Sequence record: OQ031495
Reading direction: 5' to 3' (one strand)
Length of the DNA: 64,000 bases
Source of the DNA: Escherichia phage MRostami-2023e
The notes beneath the pieces are model-generated. The model was not told where the DNA came from. It ran no database searches and saw only the letters and a list, made by a program, of their open reading frames with translations. The position numbers were made by a program, and so were the translations under genes. The number at the start of each line of letters is the position of its first letter. Position 1 is the stretch's first letter. This document shows positions 5,631 to 38,582 of this stretch, piece by piece.

Positions 5631-6956
5631 ATGCAATTGAATTCTCGTAATCTAAAAAGTATTATTGATAACGAAGCCTTAGCATATGCGATGTACACCG
5701 TTGAAAACCGTGCAATCCCAAACATGATTGATGGATTTAAGCCGGTTCAACGTTTTGTGGTTCATCGTGCGTTAGATTTGGCTCGTGGTAATAAAGAAAA
5801 ATTTCATAAACTTGCGTCAATTGCAGGTGGTGTTGCAGATTTAGGTTATCACCATGGTGAATCTTCTGCACAAGATGCAGGTGCATTGATGGCTAACACG
5901 TGGAACAACAACTATCCACTGTTAGATGGCCAAGGCAACTTTGGTTCTAGAACAGTCCAAAAAGCTGCAGCATCTCGTTATATTTTTGCTCGTGTAAGTA
6001 AAAATTTCTATAACGTATATAAAGATACTGAATATGCTCCAGCTCATGAAGATAAAGAACACATTCCACCAAAATTCTATCTTCCTATTATTCCGACAGT
6101 TCTTTTGAATGGTGTTTCTGGTATTGCAACCGGTTACGCAACAAATATTCTGCCTCATAGTTTTAAATCGGTAAAAAAGGCCGTATTACAAGCTCTTCAA
6201 GGTAAAAATGTCACTAAGCCAAAAGTTGAATTCCCGGAATTCCGTGGTGAAGTACATGAAGTTGATGGGCGTTATGAGATTCACGGAACATATAAGTTCA
6301 CATCTCGCACTCAAATGCAGATAACTGAAATCCCATATAAATTCGACCGTGAAACGTATGTGAGTAAGGTTCTTGACCCGTTGGAAGACAAAGGTCTAAT
6401 CTCTTGGGAAGATGATTGTGGTGAACACGGCTTTGGGTTTAAGGTGAAGTTCCGTAAAGAGTACTCGCTTCCTGATGATGAAGAGCTACGTCATGAAAAA
6501 ATCATGAAAGATTTTAGTCTCATCGAACGTCGTTCACAAAACATCACAGTGATTAATGAAAAGGGTAAATTAGCTGTCTACGATAACGTAGTGGACTTAA
6601 TCAAAGATTTTGTTGAAGTCCGTAAGACTTACGTTCAGAAACGTATTGACAACAAAATCCTTGAATCTGAAAAAGCATTTAAACTGGCTTTTGCTAAGGC
6701 ACACTTCATCAAAAAAGTTATTACAGGTGAAATTGTGATTCAGGGCAAGACTCGTAAAGCTTTGACTGAAGAGCTAGCACAAATCGAAATGTATAAAGAA
6801 CATGTCGATAAACTGGTAGGTCTTAACATCTTCCATATCACTTCCGACGAAGCACGTAAACTAGCAGAAGAAGCTAAAGCTAAGAAAGAAGAAAATGAGT
6901 ATTGGAAGTCTACTGATGTTGTGACCGAGTACACTAAAGACTTGGAGGCACTTTGA
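5631..6956 (+). CDS. 52: DNA topoisomerase II medium subunit gp52
   Basis: 441 aa; AYAMYTVENRAIPNMIDGFKPVQRF (GyrA-type N-terminal domain); matches T4 gp52 in length and position. Confidence 0.95.
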   Translation: MQLNSRNLKSIIDNEALAYAMYTVENRAIPNMIDGFKPVQRFVVHRALDLARGNKEKFHKLASIAGGVADLGYHHGESSAQDAGALMANTWNNNYPLLDGQGNFGSRTVQKAAASRYIFARVSKNFYNVYKDTEYAPAHEDKEHIPPKFYLPIIPTVLLNGVSGIATGYATNILPHSFKSVKKAVLQALQGKNVTKPKVEFPEFRGEVHEVDGRYEIHGTYKFTSRTQMQITEIPYKFDRETYVSKVLDPLEDKGLISWEDDCGEHGFGFKVKFRKEYSLPDDEELRHEKIMKDFSLIERRSQNITVINEKGKLAVYDNVVDLIKDFVEVRKTYVQKRIDNKILESEKAFKLAFAKAHFIKKVITGEIVIQGKTRKALTEELAQIEMYKEHVDKLVGLNIFHITSDEARKLAEEAKAKKEENEYWKSTDVVTEYTKDLEAL

Positions 6957-7033
6957 GTGCCCTAGCCTTAGGATTTCTCGGTGCAATAGCTGTACTAGTG
7001 ATTTGGCTGTATTGGTTGGACAAACATGATTAG
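6953..7033 (+). CDS. possible 26-aa hydrophobic peptide with TTG start
   Basis: GGAGG RBS 6944-6948 then TTG; LSALALGFLGAIAVLVIWLYWLDKHD; overlaps the gene 52 stop; speculative. Confidence 0.25.
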   Translation: MSALALGFLGAIAVLVIWLYWLDKHD

Positions 7034-7054
7034 GGAGCTTCGGCTCCCTTTTGT
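7033..7054 (+). terminator. intrinsic terminator, GGGAGC-UUCG-GCUCCC plus T tract
   Basis: gggagcttcggctcccttttgtg after gene 52. Confidence 0.7.
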
Positions 7055-7074
7055 GCATTTTTCTCACAAAACAG

Positions 7075-7105
7075 TTTACTTTTGCTTCAAACATGATAGT
7101 ATAGA
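7075..7105 (+). promoter_or_regulatory. early promoter with embedded MotA-box-like TGCTTCA (possible early/middle hybrid)
   Basis: gtttac 7075-7080; tgcttca 7083-7089; -10 region gatagtataga. Confidence 0.55.
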
Positions 7106-11490: not shown

Positions 11491-14400
11491 TTATGCTAAA
11501 CGAACGATATAGTTAAAAGCAACGTTTTTAACTGTGTTTTCTGTATTACCTGTACTATTTACAGTTATTGTATGTCCATGGGAACCAATTGCAACAGTAT
11601 GAGAATGAGCACCAATACCAACAGTATGAGAATGAGCACCAATACCAACAGTATGAGCATGGTTACCAGTAGCGCTAGTAGTTCCTGACCAACTATGAGT
11701 GTGGGCACCATCTGAAGAAGTTTTGGCCATATTCGACGATGCAGTAGCACCGCTCACGGTTGCAGTGAATTTAGCGTTGCCGTTTGGACCCGCACTATTG
11801 TATCCATCATAGAATATGCTAGTGGGTATGCCGCCTTGTACCTGAGGACCTGAACGCGCGTGTTGGTGCGCACCAGCGGAACTAGTATTACCACTCACTG
11901 TATGGTTATGGTTGCCAGTGGTATTACTGGTCTTAGTACCATAATCAAAGCTTGAAGTCGTTTTGCTACCGTAATCAAAACTAGAAGTGGTCTTAGTACC
12001 CAAATCTGTGTTTGATGCACTTGCACTATGGCTATGTGACTTAACACCGTCTGCTTCTGTACTTAATACAGCACGCCCAGATGGTTTACCCTTAATAGTT
12101 TGCCCACGCATATCAGGAATAGTACCTGTAGGATATGCGATAGCAAGCTTAGGATAAGCTGCGGTATCAAAGGTCTGACCTTCCATTAAAGCAAATCCAG
12201 CAGGAATTGAATCGCTTGGCCATGGAATNNNNNNNNNNNNNNNNNNNNNNNNNNNNNNNNNNNNNNNNNNNNNATTTAATGTGGTATTCAGGTTAGCAAA
12301 GTTTCCTGAACCGCCCGTGATATTACCATCAGTGCCAANNNNNNNNNNNNNNNNNNNNNNNNNNNNNNNNNNNNNNNNNNNNNNNNNNNNNNNNNNNNNN
12401 NNNNNNNNNNNNNNNNNNNNNNNNNNNNNNNNNNNNNNNNNNNNNNNNNNNNNNNNNNNNNNNNNNNNNNNNNNNNNNNNNNNNNNNNNNNNNNNNNNNN
12501 NNNNNNNNNNNNNNNNNNNNNNNNNNNNNNNNNNNNNNNNNNNNNNNNNNNNNNNNNNNNNNNNNNNNNNNNNNNNNNNNNNNNNNNNNNNNNNNNNNNN
12601 NNNNNNNNNNNNNNNNNNNNNNNNNNNNNNNNNNNNNNNNNNNNNNNNNNNNNNNNNNNNNNNNNNNNNNNNNNNTTGTCCTAATTGCATTCTGAAATTA
12701 GGAGCAATACGACTATGACTTGCTAATACAACACGCTTACTGTCATTGTCCACAGTAATCATATTACCGCCAGCGCCATCATCTCCTAACGTAACAGAAT
12801 GGCGCATTTGTACCATACCATTATNNNNNNNNNNNNNNNNNNNNNNNNNNNNNNNNNNNNNNNNNNNNNNNNNNNNNTCTTTAGGAGTCGGGATAATATG
12901 TAATGCTGTTTCTGAACGACGGAAAATAGCACCGTATTCGGCGTTCCAAATTCTCAATGCATTTGCTGTTCCGCCAAATTTAGCTTGTCCATTTACAGAC
13001 AATCCATTATTTGCAACTAAGCTTGATTCGGTTGTAATAGAACCNNNNNNNNNNNNNNNNNNNNNNNNNNNNNNNNNNNNNNNNNNNNNNNNNNNNNNNN
13101 NNNNNNNNNNNNNNNNNNNNNNNNNNNNNNNNNNNNNNNNNNNNNNNNNNNNNNNNNNNNNNNNNNNNNNNNNNNNNNNNNNNNNNNNNNNNNNNNNNNN
13201 NNNNNNNAATGAGTTACCCCATGCCTTAATAATCACATAGTTTTTATTCTGTCCTTCGCGAGTACCACCGTTCCATTGGATAGCTCTTGTTTCATCAACT
13301 TTGCTAGGGGCGCCAAATTTAAGGCCTGCAATATTATTAGAATTATTTAAAAATAATTCATTGTCTAATTTAACAGGTTGGATAGAAGAAATAGTGCCGT
13401 CAGCATAAAACTGTACGTTATTAGAACCAGTTACCAGTTTAAGAATACCTGGGTTAATTTCCATACCTTCCTGTGTATTAATGTTGGTTTGGCCTTTACC
13501 ACGGAAATAATGGGAAAATTTACCGCCAGAATTATATCCAATGTGGGTTTGACCATCACCTGCATTGTTTGTATCAGCCTGGGTTTGAACCGATAAAAGT
13601 GCGGCGTTGGTTCCAGGCATTGTCCAGGTTCCGCCTTGGTCTTCTGAGCGTCCAAATAATGCTTTACGAGTACTACGGAAACTATCAGGAGTAATAGAAG
13701 CAACAGAATTCCAATTACCTACTAAATCATAAACACCCTGCTTAATGTATTTTAAACCAGTGGCAGCATCACCTAAAGCAATATATCTTTCTCCCATTGG
13801 AGTAGGAGAACCATAGTTGTTAGTATTTTCATCAGTGGTAATTGTGCCAATAGCAAGTGAACGACGTAATACCATTGCGCCATCATTACGAAGACCCATT
13901 AATTTAGTAGTAAGTGTATTTCCGGTCCACCAAGAAATTTCATCATTCTTACCAGTTTGAGCTGAAGCGATTTCATGGTAAATAGTTCCGCCTGATTTAG
14001 CGCGAACTTTACGAAGATAGTTTACACCATTTTCTTCGCCTGTTCCAGGATAAACATATTGAACTAATGATTGCGAATCATATTGTCCGAATGCTTTTGT
14101 GTCCAAAACAATGGTTTTCGTATTAACTTGTGGAGCAGAAACTATACCATTGGCAGAGTTAATATTGCCTGATGCAGAAATATTACCTGCGCGGACCTCA
14201 ATACTACCAGAATCTACAATAAAATTACCATTACGGTTAAAGACCCAGTGTTTAGAATTGTCTGGAGCTGTAGAATCAATATAATGAACTCTAAATGAGC
14301 CTTCGCTTACTAGTGTACCTACCGAAAAAGTACCGTCTTTATAACGTTGCTTAATCAAAGGGTGGTATTCTGAAACAGAAGTAGTTGAACTTAAATCTGT

Positions 14401-23876: not shown

Positions 23877-24281
23877 ATGGAAGTCGGAAAAACGTACATC
23901 ATTAACCCTTTATCTAAAAATGACTTTGNNNNNNNNNNNNNNNNNNNNNNNNNNNNNNNNNNNNNNNNNNNNNNNNNNNNNNNNNNNNNNNNNNNNNNNN
24001 NNNNNNNNNNNNNNNNNNNNNNNNNNNNNNNNNNNNNNNNNNNNNNNNNNNNNNNNNNNNNNNNNNNNNNNNNNNNNNNNNNNNNNNNNNNNNNNNNNNN
24101 NNNNNNNNNNNNNNNNNNNNNNNNNNNNNNNNNNNNNNNNTACTTTACCGAGGTAACATTAGAAAAGCCTCAACAGGTTAACGAAGGTATAGATTTGGGT
24201 GTAACAAAAATTCATTGTGTTGTAGATAAAACCAACGTCGATGAAATCATTGAACTTTTACAAAAAACTTTTAAAAAGTAG
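23877..24281 (+). CDS. hypothetical protein, mostly masked by a 212-nt N block
   Basis: ATG with RBS after promoter; ends ..IELLQKTFKK; interior unknown. Confidence 0.35.
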   Translation: MEVGKTYIINPLSKNDFXXXXXXXXXXXXXXXXXXXXXXXXXXXXXXXXXXXXXXXXXXXXXXXXXXXXXXXXXXXXXXXXXXXXXXXYFTEVTLEKPQQVNEGIDLGVTKIHCVVDKTNVDEIIELLQKTFKK

Positions 24282-33494: not shown

Positions 33495-34580
<1,086 letters not shown>

Positions 34581-34581
<1 letters not shown>

Positions 34582-34984: not shown

Positions 34985-35260
34985 ATGTTCCCAACTTATT
35001 CTGAAATTGTAAAGGTAGTCTTCAGTCAGATTATTGCTAATAATATGTTTGAAGTGCTTGATAATGCAGCCGAACTCAGAGTTCATGCTCAACTAACTCA
35101 TGTACTCAATGCTTTGCTCCCAGACCAAGTAGATTCTATTGCTATTACTCTTCTCCCTGGGTCTGCACACGTCATCGTGGTATTTGATCTTGACGGCGAT
35201 TTAGTTATCCAATGTGATATCAATTTCGGTACACAAAAAATTGAATGCAAAGCAATTTAA
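34985..35260 (+). CDS. hypothetical protein
   Basis: 91-aa ORF. Confidence 0.5.
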   Translation: MFPTYSEIVKVVFSQIIANNMFEVLDNAAELRVHAQLTHVLNALLPDQVDSIAITLLPGSAHVIVVFDLDGDLVIQCDINFGTQKIECKAI

Positions 35261-35262
35261 TG

Positions 35263-35300
35263 GTTTACAACATGGTAGAGTTGTGATACTATAACTCTAC
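35263..35300 (+). promoter_or_regulatory. early promoter with palindrome GTAGAGTT/AACTCTAC flanking the -10
   Basis: gtttac 35263-35268; gtagagttgtgatactataactctac. Confidence 0.55.
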
Positions 35301-35321: not shown

Positions 35322-35558
35322 ATGCTAAGTGAAAACCCAATTACAGTGCACGAATTTCAGATTAAAGTAAAAGAATTTGCTCAAGCACTCATAAATAAAG
35401 TGTCTGAACGTTTCAAGGATGCAACATTACGAGTTATTCAAGAATCTCCACGTTCTTTTCTCATAATTGTTAATCCTAAAGATGGCGACCAAATTACTAA
35501 TCTTAAATTAGGCAGTGATGGTCTTGTTGAAGCAACTCGAGTATATGGAACACTATAA
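35322..35558 (+). CDS. hypothetical protein
   Basis: 78-aa ORF. Confidence 0.5.
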   Translation: MLSENPITVHEFQIKVKEFAQALINKVSERFKDATLRVIQESPRSFLIIVNPKDGDQITNLKLGSDGLVEATRVYGTL

Positions 35559-35678
35559 TGAGAGCTATCTCATTACTATCGAGAATGGTCATAAATCTGA
35601 GCACTACCAACTTAGCCTGTCTAATCCGGTTAAAGGTATTGTTGAATCAGAATCTGTTTATATCTCCTAAGGATTGTT

Positions 35679-36671
35679 ATGTTACCTGTCGTCGGAAAAC
35701 TTATTTCTCCAAAAGAACTGGCTGAGATTATTCCTTTGTCGGAAGCTTACGCATCACAAGTGGCTTCTCATCGCGAACAAGTTAATTCGATTATGAACGG
35801 TGAAGACCCACGCAAACTTATTGTTGTAGGTCCTTGTTCAATTCATGACCCTATTGCTGCTGTTGAATACGGCAAACGTCTGGCTGAACTTCAAACTCGT
35901 CTTCCTAATGTTCTGTTAGTGATGCGCGTTTATTTTGAAAAGCCTCGAACTACCGTAGGTTGGAAAGGTCTTGTAAATGATCCATATCTTGACGGAAGTT
36001 TTGATATGAACCACGGTCTTATAGTTGCACGAACATTGTGTCGTAAACTTCTACGTATGGGACTTCCATTAGCAACTGAAGTATTAGACCCATTCACGAT
36101 TAAGTATCTTTCTGGTATTTTCTCATGGGTTGCTATTGGCGCCCGTACGACTGAAAGTCAGACACATCGTGAAATTGCTTCAGGTCTACCGATGTGCGTA
36201 GGCTTCAAGAACGCAACCAATGGTTCTATTAAAGTAGCTACAGACGCGATGTATAGTGCCGCCTGGCCTCATCGGTATATGGGTATGGACGTCGATGGTA
36301 CTGTAGGCATTGTTGAAGCTGAAGGTAATCGGAATACGCATATTGTATTGCGTGGCGGGACCAACGGCCCGAACTATCATTCTTCTGATATTCAAGAAGC
36401 TTCTAACAAAGCAAGTGCAGTAGGTCTGAATCATTATGTAATGGTTGACTGTAGCCATGCAAACGCTGATGGGCATTATAGCAATCAAATTGGTATTGGT
36501 AAAAATTTAGCAGCTAATGATTTGGTCAAAGGAATTATGATAGAATCATTCCTACATGAAGGAAATCAAAAAATTTCTGATAATATGTCCTATGGCGTTT
36601 CCGTTACCGATGCGTGCATCAGTTGGGAACAAACTAAAGAGCTGTTAACTTATATTAATAAGGTTCAATAA
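35679..36671 (+). CDS. 3-deoxy-D-arabino-heptulosonate 7-phosphate (DAHP) synthase, class I (AroG/AroF/AroH-like)
   Basis: 330 aa; GPCSIHD, MRVYFEKPRTTVGWKGL, GARTTESQ, GFKN, ILRGG, CSHAN, ESFLHEGNQ, ITDACISWE; Cys/His/Glu/Asp metal ligands present. Confidence 0.85.
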   Translation: MLPVVGKLISPKELAEIIPLSEAYASQVASHREQVNSIMNGEDPRKLIVVGPCSIHDPIAAVEYGKRLAELQTRLPNVLLVMRVYFEKPRTTVGWKGLVNDPYLDGSFDMNHGLIVARTLCRKLLRMGLPLATEVLDPFTIKYLSGIFSWVAIGARTTESQTHREIASGLPMCVGFKNATNGSIKVATDAMYSAAWPHRYMGMDVDGTVGIVEAEGNRNTHIVLRGGTNGPNYHSSDIQEASNKASAVGLNHYVMVDCSHANADGHYSNQIGIGKNLAANDLVKGIMIESFLHEGNQKISDNMSYGVSVTDACISWEQTKELLTYINKVQ

Positions 36672-37252
36672 TGAAAGCTAGCACATACCTTCAGATTGCA
36701 TATCTGATTTCTCAAGAATCAAAATGTTGTTCATGGAAAGTTGGCGCAGTCATTGAAAAAGATGGGCGCATTATTTCTACTGGGTATAACGGTAGCCCGG
36801 CCGGTGGTGTTAACTGTTGTGAACATGCATCCGAAAACGGTTGGTTGAAGAATAAACCAAGCCCGGTCATCGTTGCTGGGCATAAAGAAGGCACTACAGC
36901 ATTTGGACGGGTGGATAATTTTGTTTTGGCTAAAGAACATAGGGCCGCTCATAGTGCATGGTCTGCTAATAACGAAATCCATGCGGAACTGAACGCAATT
37001 TTGTTTGCAGCTCGTAAAGGTAATTCTATTGAAGGTGCTACGTTATATACTACGCTTTCTCCGTGTCCTGATTGCACTAAAGCTATTACGCAGTCAGGTA
37101 TTAAAAAGGTTGTATACGCGGAATTATATGACAGATCTCCTGAAAATTGGGCCGACATTCTAAAACAAGCCGGTATTGAAGTAATTCAGTACTCTCGTAA
37201 TAATCTTCGTTCTCTGAATTGGGAACAAATCCGAAACTTTTGTGGTGAATAA
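36671..37252 (+). CDS. cd: dCMP deaminase
   Basis: 193 aa; ..SKCCSWKVGAVIEK..HAELNAILFAARKG..LSPCPDC.. matches T4 Cd (193 aa). Confidence 0.93.
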   Translation: MKASTYLQIAYLISQESKCCSWKVGAVIEKDGRIISTGYNGSPAGGVNCCEHASENGWLKNKPSPVIVAGHKEGTTAFGRVDNFVLAKEHRAAHSAWSANNEIHAELNAILFAARKGNSIEGATLYTTLSPCPDCTKAITQSGIKKVVYAELYDRSPENWADILKQAGIEVIQYSRNNLRSLNWEQIRNFCGE

Positions 37253-37550: not shown

Positions 37551-37607
37551 TATGCTTTACGAATAGTATGGTATTATTAATCTATCGTCAAACAACAAGG
37601 AAATAAG

Positions 37608-37940
37608 ATGTCTGAAGTACAACTCCCAATTCGTGCTGTTGGTGAATATGTTATTCTGGTTTCTGAACCCGCTCAAGCAGGTGATGAAGAAGTTACCGAA
37701 TCAGGACTTGTGATTGGTAAACGTGTTCAAGGTGAAGTTCCTGAACTATGTGTAGTTCATTCTGTAGGTCCTGATGTTCCTGAAGGTTTTGTTGAAGTCG
37801 GTGATTTGACTCCACTACCAGTTGGACAAATTCGAAATGTTCCACATCCATTTGTGGCTTTGGGACTTAAACATCCTAAAGAAATTAAACAGAAATTCGT
37901 AACATGCCACTATAAAGCTATTCCGTGTCTTTATAAGTGA
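37608..37940 (+). CDS. 31: gp31 co-chaperonin (GroES analogue for capsid protein folding)
   Basis: 110 aa; [44 protein letters not shown] matches T4 gp31. Confidence 0.93.
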
Positions 37941-38313: not shown

Positions 38314-38582
38314 GTTNNNNNNNNNNNNNNNNNNNNNNNNNNNNNNNNNNNNNNNNNNNNNNNNNNNNNNNNNNNNNNNNCCCCGGCAGTTTTACGGTGT
38401 ACCTCTTGAATGTATTTTATACTATCACGCGTCAGAAAAAGGTTATCTGTCTAAGTCGTGGTTGGTATGATGACGAGGTTTATGGTTATCCTGTCGTTAA
38501 ATATCCAAAACCTATGTTCCCCTTGAGGGCTTGCGCAGGCAATGTCAATAAGTCCTGCATTTTCATTTAAAGAGAATTTATA

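What the first reader, a model, noticed from the sequence alone, without database searches (positions are those of the whole stretch)
35679..36671. Complete class I DAHP synthase (shikimate pathway entry enzyme) in the pseT-cd slot
The 330-aa ORF carries the signature blocks of AroG/AroF/AroH-type DAHP synthase (GPCSIHD, MRVYFEKPRTTVGWKGL, GARTTESQ, GFKN, ILRGG, CSHAN, ESFLHEGNQ, ITDACISWE), including the four metal ligands Cys, His, Glu and Asp. It sits where T4 has only small cd.x ORFs, among early nucleotide-metabolism genes. A phage copy of the first committed step of aromatic amino acid biosynthesis would be an auxiliary metabolic gene. Its N-terminus is several residues shorter than E. 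coli AroG, a region implicated in feedback inhibition, so it could be regulated differently. I cannot say from the sequence whether this has been annotated before in related phages.
Basis: partly seen in the sequence, partly recalled or inferred. Interest (0 to 1): 0.75.

Follow-up and report, generated by a model that had tools for sequence, protein, structure and literature searches.

The report
Phage DAHP synthase, probably feedback-insensitive
This T4-like coliphage carries an intact copy of the enzyme that starts aromatic amino acid synthesis; the gene is already annotated in over a hundred related phages but never tested, and its inhibitor-binding site looks disabled.

Summary
The ORF is real: 35679..36671, + strand, 330 aa. 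It is a type I-alpha DAHP synthase (Pfam 1e-74; above the NCBIfam aroFGH equivalog cut-off; AlphaFold model TM 0.96 to solved enzymes). All metal and substrate ligands are kept.

It is not new. The window is 100% identical to Escherichia phage vB_EQ1, a Mosigvirus, where the gene is annotated. 212 phage records carry a homologue, PHROGs has a family for it (phrog_5045), and a 2020 preprint lists it as a Mosigvirus auxiliary metabolic gene of unknown function. I found no functional study.

What this work adds:
- The T4-like copies form one clade (94-100% bootstrap) in the same pseT-cd slot in four genera. They match phage base composition and are under purifying selection.
- RB69 lacks the gene; there the 1.1-kb segment, bounded by a 19-nt repeat, is missing.
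- Every clade member has a short N-terminus and fixed replacements at AroG Pro150, Gln151, Ser180 and Phe209. These are feedback-resistance or inhibitor-contact positions. None of 94 cellular relatives has the Lys, Pro or Tyr.

Best reading: an early-expressed DAHP synthase that escapes Tyr/Phe/Trp feedback. This is inferred and untested.

The parts
35679..36671 (+). DAHP synthase gene (type I-alpha, 330 aa; stop TAA at 36669-36671)
   Evidence: ORF. PF00793 E=1e-74. TIGR00034 427 bits against a cut-off of 173. phrog_5045 E=1e-181. PDB AroF 6agm E=7e-105. AlphaFold pLDDT 93.8, TM 0.96 to solved DAH7PS.
35669..35673 (+). Shine-Dalgarno-like AAGGA, 5 nt before the ATG
   Evidence: Read directly from the sequence.
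35264..35292 (+). Early-type promoter-like site, GTTTACA-N17-TGaTACTAT, between the cd.3 and cd.2 homologues; candidate promoter for cd.2, DAHP synthase and cd
   Evidence: Consensus scan, 9 of 12 matches plus a TG extension; sequence. T4 has an annotated early promoter between cd.2 and cd.3. Function is inferred; the scan found no more sites than shuffled sequence gives.
35574..36667 (+). 1,094-bp segment present here and absent from phage RB69 (a 105-nt leader plus the synthase ORF)
   Evidence: blastn of the window against the RB69 region: flanks are 96.2% and 95.2% identical and this block has no counterpart. In RB69, cd.2 abuts cd.
35555..35573 (+). Left copy of an imperfect 19-nt direct repeat, ATAATGAGAGCTATCTCAT; a degenerate duplicate of the start of cd that overlaps the cd.2 stop
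   Evidence: 16 of 19 bases match the right copy; RB69 has one copy.
36668..36686 (+). Right copy of the direct repeat, ATAATGAAAGCTAGCACAT; the true start of cd
36671..37252 (+). dCMP deaminase gene (cd); its ATG shares one base with the synthase stop (TAATG), an arrangement expected to couple translation
   Evidence: PF00383 E=1.6e-26 and phrog_174; overlap read. The two genes are also adjacent or nearly so in Kanagawavirus and Marfavirus.
33682..34581 (+). Polynucleotide kinase/phosphatase gene (pseT), the upstream landmark of the slot
   Evidence: PF25109 and PF13671; phrog_505 E=7.5e-125.

Best explanation
The ORF encodes a catalytically competent type I-alpha DAHP synthase (PEP + erythrose-4-phosphate -> DAHP + phosphate). 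It belongs to an old clade specific to T4-like phages that sits in the early nucleotide-metabolism region between pseT and cd. The catalytic machinery is untouched. The aromatic amino acid feedback site has lost the two side chains that hold the inhibitor's main chain (Gln to Lys, Ser to Pro). It has also lost the Pro whose mutation desensitises AroG, it has Tyr in place of Phe209, and it lacks the first 8-9 N-terminal residues. The enzyme therefore most likely acts as a constitutively open entry valve. [quoted passage not shown] Host enzymes would convert DAHP to chorismate for aromatic amino acids and possibly for p-aminobenzoate and folate. Shown: family, fold, intact ligands, clade, synteny, selection, and the altered pocket. 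Inferred: activity, early expression, feedback insensitivity and the physiological benefit.
For: Identity. C61, H268, E302, D326, R92, K97, P98, R99, G163, A164, R165, K186 and R234 are invariant in all 123 aligned sequences; T100 is Thr in every phage-clade member (Ser in 3 cellular sequences). Clade: monophyletic in 100 of 100 bootstraps (94 of 100 with viral contigs added). The closest cellular protein is at most 55.6% identical; identity to AroF is 51%. Long residence: the same pseT-cd slot in Mosigvirus, Kanagawavirus, Marfavirus and Bragavirus. Divergence (77, 66, 58%) lies within the range of PseT, Cd and gp31. GC is 41% and GC3 29%, like the neighbours, against 52% and 51% for E. coli aroF. 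Selection: dN/dS between genera is 0.15-0.22. Deregulation signature: 5-9 N-terminal residues before the AroG-L16 column against 13-50 in cellular enzymes. Ile, Lys, Pro and Tyr at AroG 150, 151, 180 and 209 occur in 32, 32, 33 and 33 of 33 unique clade sequences; Lys, Pro and Tyr occur in 0 of 94 cellular relatives. Literature: AroG P150L, S180F and F209A/S are feedback-resistant, and the Q151/Q152 and S180/S181 side chains contact the inhibitor's main chain (PMC9529685). Tyr-insensitive AroF arises by replacing Pro148 or Gln152 or deleting Ile11 (PMC5791370). Expression: SD sequence, TAATG overlap with cd, an early-type promoter where T4 has one, and no late-promoter motif upstream.
Against: There are no biochemical data for any phage member; I found only three passing mentions in the literature. 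The natural replacements (Ile, Lys, Pro, Tyr) are not the tested mutations (Leu, Ala/Ile, Phe, Ala/Ser), so loss of inhibition is extrapolated. Several pocket residues are retained: D146, the AroF-Pro148 equivalent, L179, V221, and the Tyr-type Gly at AroG-211. The replaced residues are fixed rather than drifting, which also fits a re-tooled ligand site. RB69 lacks the gene, so it is dispensable at least in the laboratory. One bacterial enzyme in a chromosomal context (P0097) also has an altered pocket. The promoter call is a consensus match in a scan that was not enriched over shuffles.
Confidence: 0.6

Rival explanations
1. It is an ordinary feedback-regulated isozyme, Tyr-sensitive like AroF. 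It only adds enzyme dosage during infection and keeps normal allosteric control.
For: The closest solved and closest E. coli relative is Tyr-sensitive AroF (51% identity). The clade has Gly at the AroG-Ser211 position, as AroF does, and keeps D146, the AroF-Pro148 equivalent, L179 and V221.
Against: Both side chains that hold the inhibitor's main chain are replaced (Gln to Lys, Ser to Pro). So are AroG Pro150 and Phe209, and the N-terminus is 8-9 residues short. Mutations at each of these sites give feedback resistance in E. coli enzymes.
Confidence: 0.13
2. The regulatory pocket has been re-tooled rather than lost. It binds a different effector, for example a nucleotide, a folate-related compound or a chorismate-pathway intermediate, and so ties shikimate entry to phage DNA metabolism.
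For: The four replacements are fixed in a clade whose members are as little as 53% identical. The majority-residue fraction is 0.92 for pocket columns against 0.745 over all columns, and the chance that four random columns are all this conserved is about 0.03. The new Lys and Tyr add charge and hydrogen-bonding capacity. The gene is translationally linked to cd (annotated in T4 as an allosteric enzyme). In an unrelated 262-kb viral contig, a copy with a partly similar pocket sits next to a thymidylate kinase.
Against: There is no direct evidence for any ligand. Fixed residues could simply fill the cavity and stabilise the active state. Gene adjacency is weak evidence. The N-terminal lid is missing.
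Confidence: 0.15
3. The enzyme's value is not aromatic biosynthesis. It might act as a sink that redirects PEP or erythrose-4-phosphate flux, have another moonlighting or counter-defence role, or be nearly neutral cargo.
For: Only the first of seven pathway steps is encoded. RB69 lacks the gene. Published mentions call its function unknown.
Against: Purifying selection and invariant catalytic residues persist across four genera. The gene has stayed in one slot with backbone-like divergence. Draining erythrose-4-phosphate would lower, not raise, ribose yield; that is reasoning from pathway stoichiometry, not a test.
Confidence: 0.09
4. It is a decaying or inactive gene remnant.
For: Truncated termini and two loop deletions relative to AroF/AroG.
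Against: The ORF is full length and scores above the equivalog cut-off. All ligands are intact, the model is confident, dN/dS is 0.15-0.22, and the ORF is conserved in 212 phage records.
Confidence: 0.03

Closest known systems
E. coli AroF (Tyr-sensitive DAHP synthase; PDB 6agm/6agl)
   Same: Same family and fold. 51% identity across the whole barrel. All metal, PEP and E4P ligands are identical. Gly at the position that is Ser211 in AroG.
   Different: The phage protein lacks AroF residues about 1-9. It has Ile for Pro151, Lys for Gln152, Pro for Ser181 and Tyr for Phe210, shorter loops and a shorter C-terminus. Its GC3 is 29% against 51%.
Engineered feedback-resistant AroG/AroF (AroG P150L, S180F, F209A; AroF Gln152 replacements and Ile11 deletion)
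   Same: Changes at the same positions, with catalysis preserved.
   Different: The substitutions are natural, combined and different in kind, and they are fixed across a whole clade. Their effect has not been measured.
phrog_5045 / the DAHP synthase annotated in Mosigvirus, Kanagawavirus, Marfavirus and Bragavirus genomes
   Same: This gene is a member: E=1e-181 over its full length, and 100% identical to XPQ48355.1 of phage vB_EQ1.
   Different: Nothing; it is the same gene family. No member has been characterised biochemically, as far as the searchable literature shows.
Neisseria meningitidis DAH7PS and E. coli AroG structures (4hso, 1kfl, 8e0u)
   Same: TM 0.96 and rmsd 1.3-1.5 A to the AlphaFold model, including the beta6a/6b hairpin typical of type I-alpha enzymes.
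   Different: 45-46% identity. Those enzymes have the full N-terminus and the canonical Pro-Gln...Ser...Phe inhibitor site.

Membership tests
DAHP synthase family I (Pfam PF00793) | Profile match above the gathering score | tested here: met
   251.3 bits against 25.5; E=1e-74; residues 36-323.
Type I-alpha DAHP synthase, AroF/G/H equivalog (TIGR00034; NF009395) | Score above the curated equivalog or subfamily cut-off | tested here: met
   TIGR00034 426.6 against 173.2; NF009395 454.3 against 343.
Type I-alpha DAHP synthase | Metal ligands Cys, His, Glu, Asp (AroG C61, H268, E302, D326) | tested here: met
   C53, H260, E289 and D311; invariant in 123 sequences.
Type I-alpha DAHP synthase | PEP and E4P binding residues (KPRT motif, R92, G163-A164-R165, K186, R234) | tested here: met
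   All conserved in the query and in every phage-clade member.
Type I-alpha DAHP synthase | (beta/alpha)8 barrel with the beta6a/6b hairpin insertion | tested here: met
   AlphaFold pLDDT 93.8 with strands at 198-203 and 209-214; Foldseek TM 0.96 to AroG and NmeDAH7PS.
Type I-alpha DAHP synthase | Full N-terminal extension that contributes to the inhibitor site | tested here: not met
   7 residues before the AroG-L16 column against 13-50 in cellular homologues. Deleting AroF Ile11 gives feedback resistance. That AroG Asp6/Asp7 contact Phe is my recollection, not tested here.
Feedback-inhibited AroF/AroG-type isozyme | Inhibitor-contact residues Gln151/152 and Ser180/181, plus Pro150 and Phe209 | tested here: not met
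   Lys142, Pro171, Ile141 and Tyr200; fixed in 32-33 of 33 clade members; Lys, Pro and Tyr in 0 of 94 cellular relatives. Residue roles from PMC9529685.
AroG-specific and AroH-specific NCBIfam models (NF006723, NF009396) | Score above the isozyme-specific cut-off | tested here: not met
   362.5 against 568 for AroG; 384.8 against 463 for AroH.
DAHP synthase (EC 2.5.1.54) | Catalysis of PEP + E4P -> DAHP, and its response to Tyr, Phe and Trp | not testable with these tools
   Needs an enzyme assay or complementation.
Phage auxiliary metabolic gene (phrog_5045) | A host-type metabolic gene inside a bona fide phage genome, flanked by phage genes | tested here: met
   phrog_5045 E=1e-181. 100% identical to isolate phage vB_EQ1, between pseT and cd. 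Phage-like GC3.

The most novel reading that the evidence does not exclude
The T4-like phage DAHP synthases are a natural clade whose allosteric pocket was rebuilt, not merely broken (Gln to Lys, Ser to Pro, Pro to Ile, Phe to Tyr, N-terminal lid removed). The enzyme would either ignore aromatic amino acids altogether or respond to a phage-relevant metabolite. That would link chorismate and folate supply to the adjacent dCMP deaminase / hydroxymethyl-dC / dTMP machinery. It would be a ready-made feedback-resistant enzyme for biotechnology and a new kind of phage control over host central metabolism.
Probability: 0.15. Interest if true: 0.6.

Novelty: already known. Interest (0 to 1): 0.3.

Why it matters
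DAHP synthase is the flux-controlling entry step of the shikimate pathway. A virulent coliphage that supplies its own copy, apparently stripped of feedback control, would be a clear case of a phage overriding host amino acid or cofactor homeostasis in an enteric system that is easy to work with. RB69 is a natural null for comparison. Natural feedback-resistant DAHP synthases also matter for making aromatic compounds. The presence and annotation of the gene are not new, however, so the value lies in the regulatory prediction, which is testable and untested.

Tried and rejected
1. dN/dS within Mosigvirus: only 3-9 substitutions per 990 nt, giving ratios of 0.15-1.04, which is uninformative. I used comparisons between genera instead.
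2. Ten full-text searches for a functional study of a phage DAHP synthase found only three passing mentions (passages). The GADS24 Mosigvirus paper does not mention the gene.
3. I looked for a citable statement on the role of the N-terminus beyond the AroF Ile11 deletion and did not find one. The AroG Asp6/Asp7 contact stays marked as recollection.
4. I tested whether other phage copies with altered pockets (L025/L027, Aeromonas HJ05, a faecal contig) share ancestry with the T4-like clade. Neighbour-joining support was only 3-29%, so this is unresolved.
5. I tested whether altered pockets are exclusive to phages. They are not: P0097 lies in a bacterial chromosomal context with uvrC and ABC transporters.
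6. The late-promoter motif TATAAATA is absent upstream on the gene's strand. The one MotA-box-like match nearby, at 35110 inside the cd.3 homologue, is weak.
7. No tRNA genes in the window.
8. I considered recent capture from E. coli and rejected it: 51% identity to AroF and phage-like GC3.

Full report
**Observation.** The ORF exists as described: 35679..36671 on the + strand, ATG start, 330 aa. An AAGGA sits 5 nt upstream of the start. The TAA stop shares a base with the ATG of the next gene, giving TAATG. Seven of the nine quoted motifs are exact. Two are off by one residue: VLRGG, not ILRGG, and VTDACISWE, not ITDACISWE.

**Identity.**
- Pfam DAHP_synth_1: E=1e-74.
- NCBIfam: the aroFGH equivalog TIGR00034 scores 427 bits against a cut-off of 173, and NF009395 scores 454 against 343. 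The AroG-specific and AroH-specific models fall below their cut-offs.
- Solved structures: the best match is Tyr-sensitive E. coli AroF (6agm, E=7e-105).
- Structure: an AlphaFold model built from a 43-sequence alignment has pLDDT 93.8 and pTM 0.92. It superposes on N. meningitidis DAH7PS and E. coli AroG at TM 0.96 and rmsd 1.3-1.5 A.
- Residues: I aligned the query with AroF, AroG, AroH and 119 database homologues. The metal ligands (query C53, H260, E289, D311) and the PEP/E4P residues are conserved throughout; AroG T100 is Ser in three cellular sequences.

**Provenance and prior knowledge.** The 4-kb region is 100% identical to Escherichia phage vB_EQ1 (PQ516281.1), where the gene is annotated as phospho-2-dehydro-3-deoxyheptonate aldolase. 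Close relatives are classified as Mosigvirus, in Straboviridae, Tevenvirinae.
- 212 phage records encode a homologue, and 139 of them are at least 95% identical. Most annotate it as DAHP synthase, aroF or AroG.
- PHROGs holds the family as phrog_5045, in the category "moron, auxiliary metabolic gene and host takeover".
- Olsen et al. [quoted passage not shown]
- PMC11845039 discusses one in a Kanagawavirus, and PMC8022965 notes the domain in phage phiC120.
- I found no biochemical or genetic study.

The finding as stated is therefore already known.

**Context.** T4 has pseT, cd.5, cd.4, cd.3, cd.2, cd.1, cd. Here the homologues of cd.5 to cd.2 are present and the synthase takes the place of cd.1. 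The same pseT-to-cd slot holds the gene in Kanagawavirus Entb_45, Marfavirus PhiKpNIH-6 and Bragavirus PM2.

RB69, the type Mosigvirus, lacks the gene; there cd.2 abuts cd. Alignment with RB69 shows that window 35574-36667 (1,094 bp) is the extra segment. It is bounded by an imperfect 19-nt direct repeat (16 of 19 bases) at 35555-35573 and 36668-36686. The left copy is a degenerate duplicate of the first codons of cd, and RB69 has a single copy. The gene is thus an accessory cassette that can be gained or lost by recombination at this repeat.

**Evolution.**
- The T4-like phage copies are monophyletic in 100 of 100 neighbour-joining bootstraps, and in 94 of 100 when viral contigs are added.
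- The closest cellular protein is at most 55.6% identical. Identity to AroF, AroG and AroH is 51%, 47% and 43%. Identity within the clade falls to 53%.
- Divergence between genera (77%, 66%, 58%) lies within the range of the neighbouring backbone proteins PseT, Cd and gp31.
- GC is 41% and GC3 29%, like the neighbours and unlike E. coli aroF at 52% and 51%.
- dN/dS between genera is 0.15-0.22; these are upper bounds because dS is saturated.

This is an old, selected resident of these phage lineages, not a recent capture from the host.

**Regulatory site (the new point).** Every member of the phage clade has only 5-9 residues before the AroG-L16 column, against 13-50 in cellular enzymes. The clade also carries four replacements:

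| AroG position | Query residue | T4-like clade (33 unique sequences) | Cellular relatives (94 sequences) |
|---|---|---|---|
| Pro150 | Ile141 | 32 Ile | 88 Pro, 6 Val |
| Gln151 | Lys142 | 32 Lys, 1 Arg | 94 Gln |
| Ser180 | Pro171 | 33 Pro | 93 Ser |
| Phe209 | Tyr200 | 33 Tyr | 93 Phe |

According to PMC9529685, AroG P150L, S180F and F209A/S are feedback-resistant. The same paper states that the Gln151 (AroF Gln152) and Ser180 (AroF Ser181) side chains bind the main chain of the inhibitor. PMC5791370 states that Tyr-insensitive AroF arises by replacing Pro148 or Gln152 or by deleting Ile11.

Retained are D146, the AroF-Pro148 equivalent, L179, V221 and the AroF-type Gly at AroG-211. That AroG Asp6 and Asp7 cap the bound Phe is my recollection and was not tested here.

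In IMG/VR, giant-virus MAG copies and most other viral-contig copies keep the canonical Pro-Gln...Ser...Phe set. A few other phage copies have different alterations. These are a 262-kb contig where the gene sits next to a thymidylate kinase, Aeromonas phage HJ05, and a faecal contig. Their relationship to the T4-like clade is unresolved. One bacterial chromosomal enzyme also has an altered pocket.

**Expression.** A site, GTTTACA-N17-TGaTACTAT, at 35264-35292 lies between the cd.3 and cd.2 homologues. T4 has an annotated early promoter at the equivalent place. No TATAAATA late motif lies upstream on this strand. Early transcription together with cd.2 and cd is inferred, not shown. The promoter scan as a whole was not enriched over shuffled sequence.

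**Mechanism.** The most likely reading is an active DAHP synthase made early and insensitive to Tyr, Phe and Trp. It would keep PEP and E4P flowing into the host shikimate pathway after host transcription stops and while the host isozymes are inhibited. I put about 0.95 on the enzyme identity and about 0.6 on the full statement including deregulation.

Which chorismate product matters is open. It could be aromatic amino acids, or pABA and folate for the hydroxymethyl-dC and dTMP enzymes encoded nearby.

The rivals are a normally regulated extra isozyme (0.13), a re-tooled pocket that senses another ligand (0.15), a non-biosynthetic or near-neutral role (0.09) and an inactive remnant (0.03). 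The pocket replacements are fixed rather than drifting: pocket columns have a majority fraction of 0.92 against 0.745 overall. That keeps the re-tooled reading alive.

**Verdict.** The observation and the interpretation are correct, but the gene is already annotated and has been noted in print. The predicted natural feedback insensitivity is a modest, testable addition. Interest is 0.3.

Noticed in passing
window 33682-34581 (pseT); the PQ516281.1 annotation starts at about window 33805: The deposited vB_EQ1 annotation calls a 258-aa polynucleotide kinase. The GTG start at 33682 gives a 299-aa protein that includes the P-loop GCPGSGKS and matches phrog_505 and T4 PseT over their full length. 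The deposited start looks miscalled.
   Followed up: partly
L010 (RB69 NC_004928), cd gene, record 133742-134251: RB69 cd reads through as a near-identical 193-aa protein, except for a frameshift-like break near the C-terminus (...ILKPSWY*). This explains its shorter 169-aa annotation. It could be a real truncation or an old sequencing error.
   Followed up: no
window 35545-35670 (+): A 41-aa ORF (MEHYNESYLITIENGHKSEHYQLSLSNPVKGIVESESVYIS) spans the left repeat and the cassette leader. It is annotated as hypothetical in vB_EQ1 and SHSML-52-1 but not in moskry. Whether it codes for a protein is unknown.
   Followed up: no
window: 15 runs of N, including 12339-12675, 23929-24140 and 38317-38380: 1,385 bases of the window are masked as N in 15 runs. 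One lies about 1.6 kb downstream of the gene, in the rIII to 30.9 interval. None touches the DAHP synthase.
   Followed up: partly
L025 / L027 (IMG/VR contigs; L025 is from a 261,788-bp contig), DAHPS at L025:2956-4005: A probable jumbo-phage contig carries a DAHP synthase about 49% identical to the query. Its pocket is partly similar (Pro-Asn...Pro...Tyr) and its N-terminus is of normal length. A type IB topoisomerase-like gene and a thymidylate kinase flank it, so this is a second case of the gene sitting beside nucleotide metabolism.
   Followed up: partly
L029-L092 (many IMG/VR GVMAG contigs): Dozens of giant-virus metagenome bins encode type I-alpha DAHP synthases, 40-47% identical to the query, with canonical catalytic and allosteric residues. 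Whether these are truly viral or come from binning contamination was not examined.
   Followed up: no
window 37553-37577 (+): A MotA-box-like middle-promoter match, TGCTTTACGAATAGTATGGTATTAT, lies just upstream of the gene 31 (co-chaperonin) homologue at 37608. The pattern TGCTT-N12-15-TANNNT is enriched in the window: 27 matches against 16 expected.
   Followed up: no
L095 (JGI metagenome contig, 58 kb), gene at 6001-7083: A bacterial chromosomal DAHP synthase (P0097; neighbours include uvrC, pgsA and ABC transporters) has a non-canonical pocket (Ala-Gly...Pro...His). Divergent allosteric sites therefore also occur, rarely, in cellular enzymes.
   Followed up: partly
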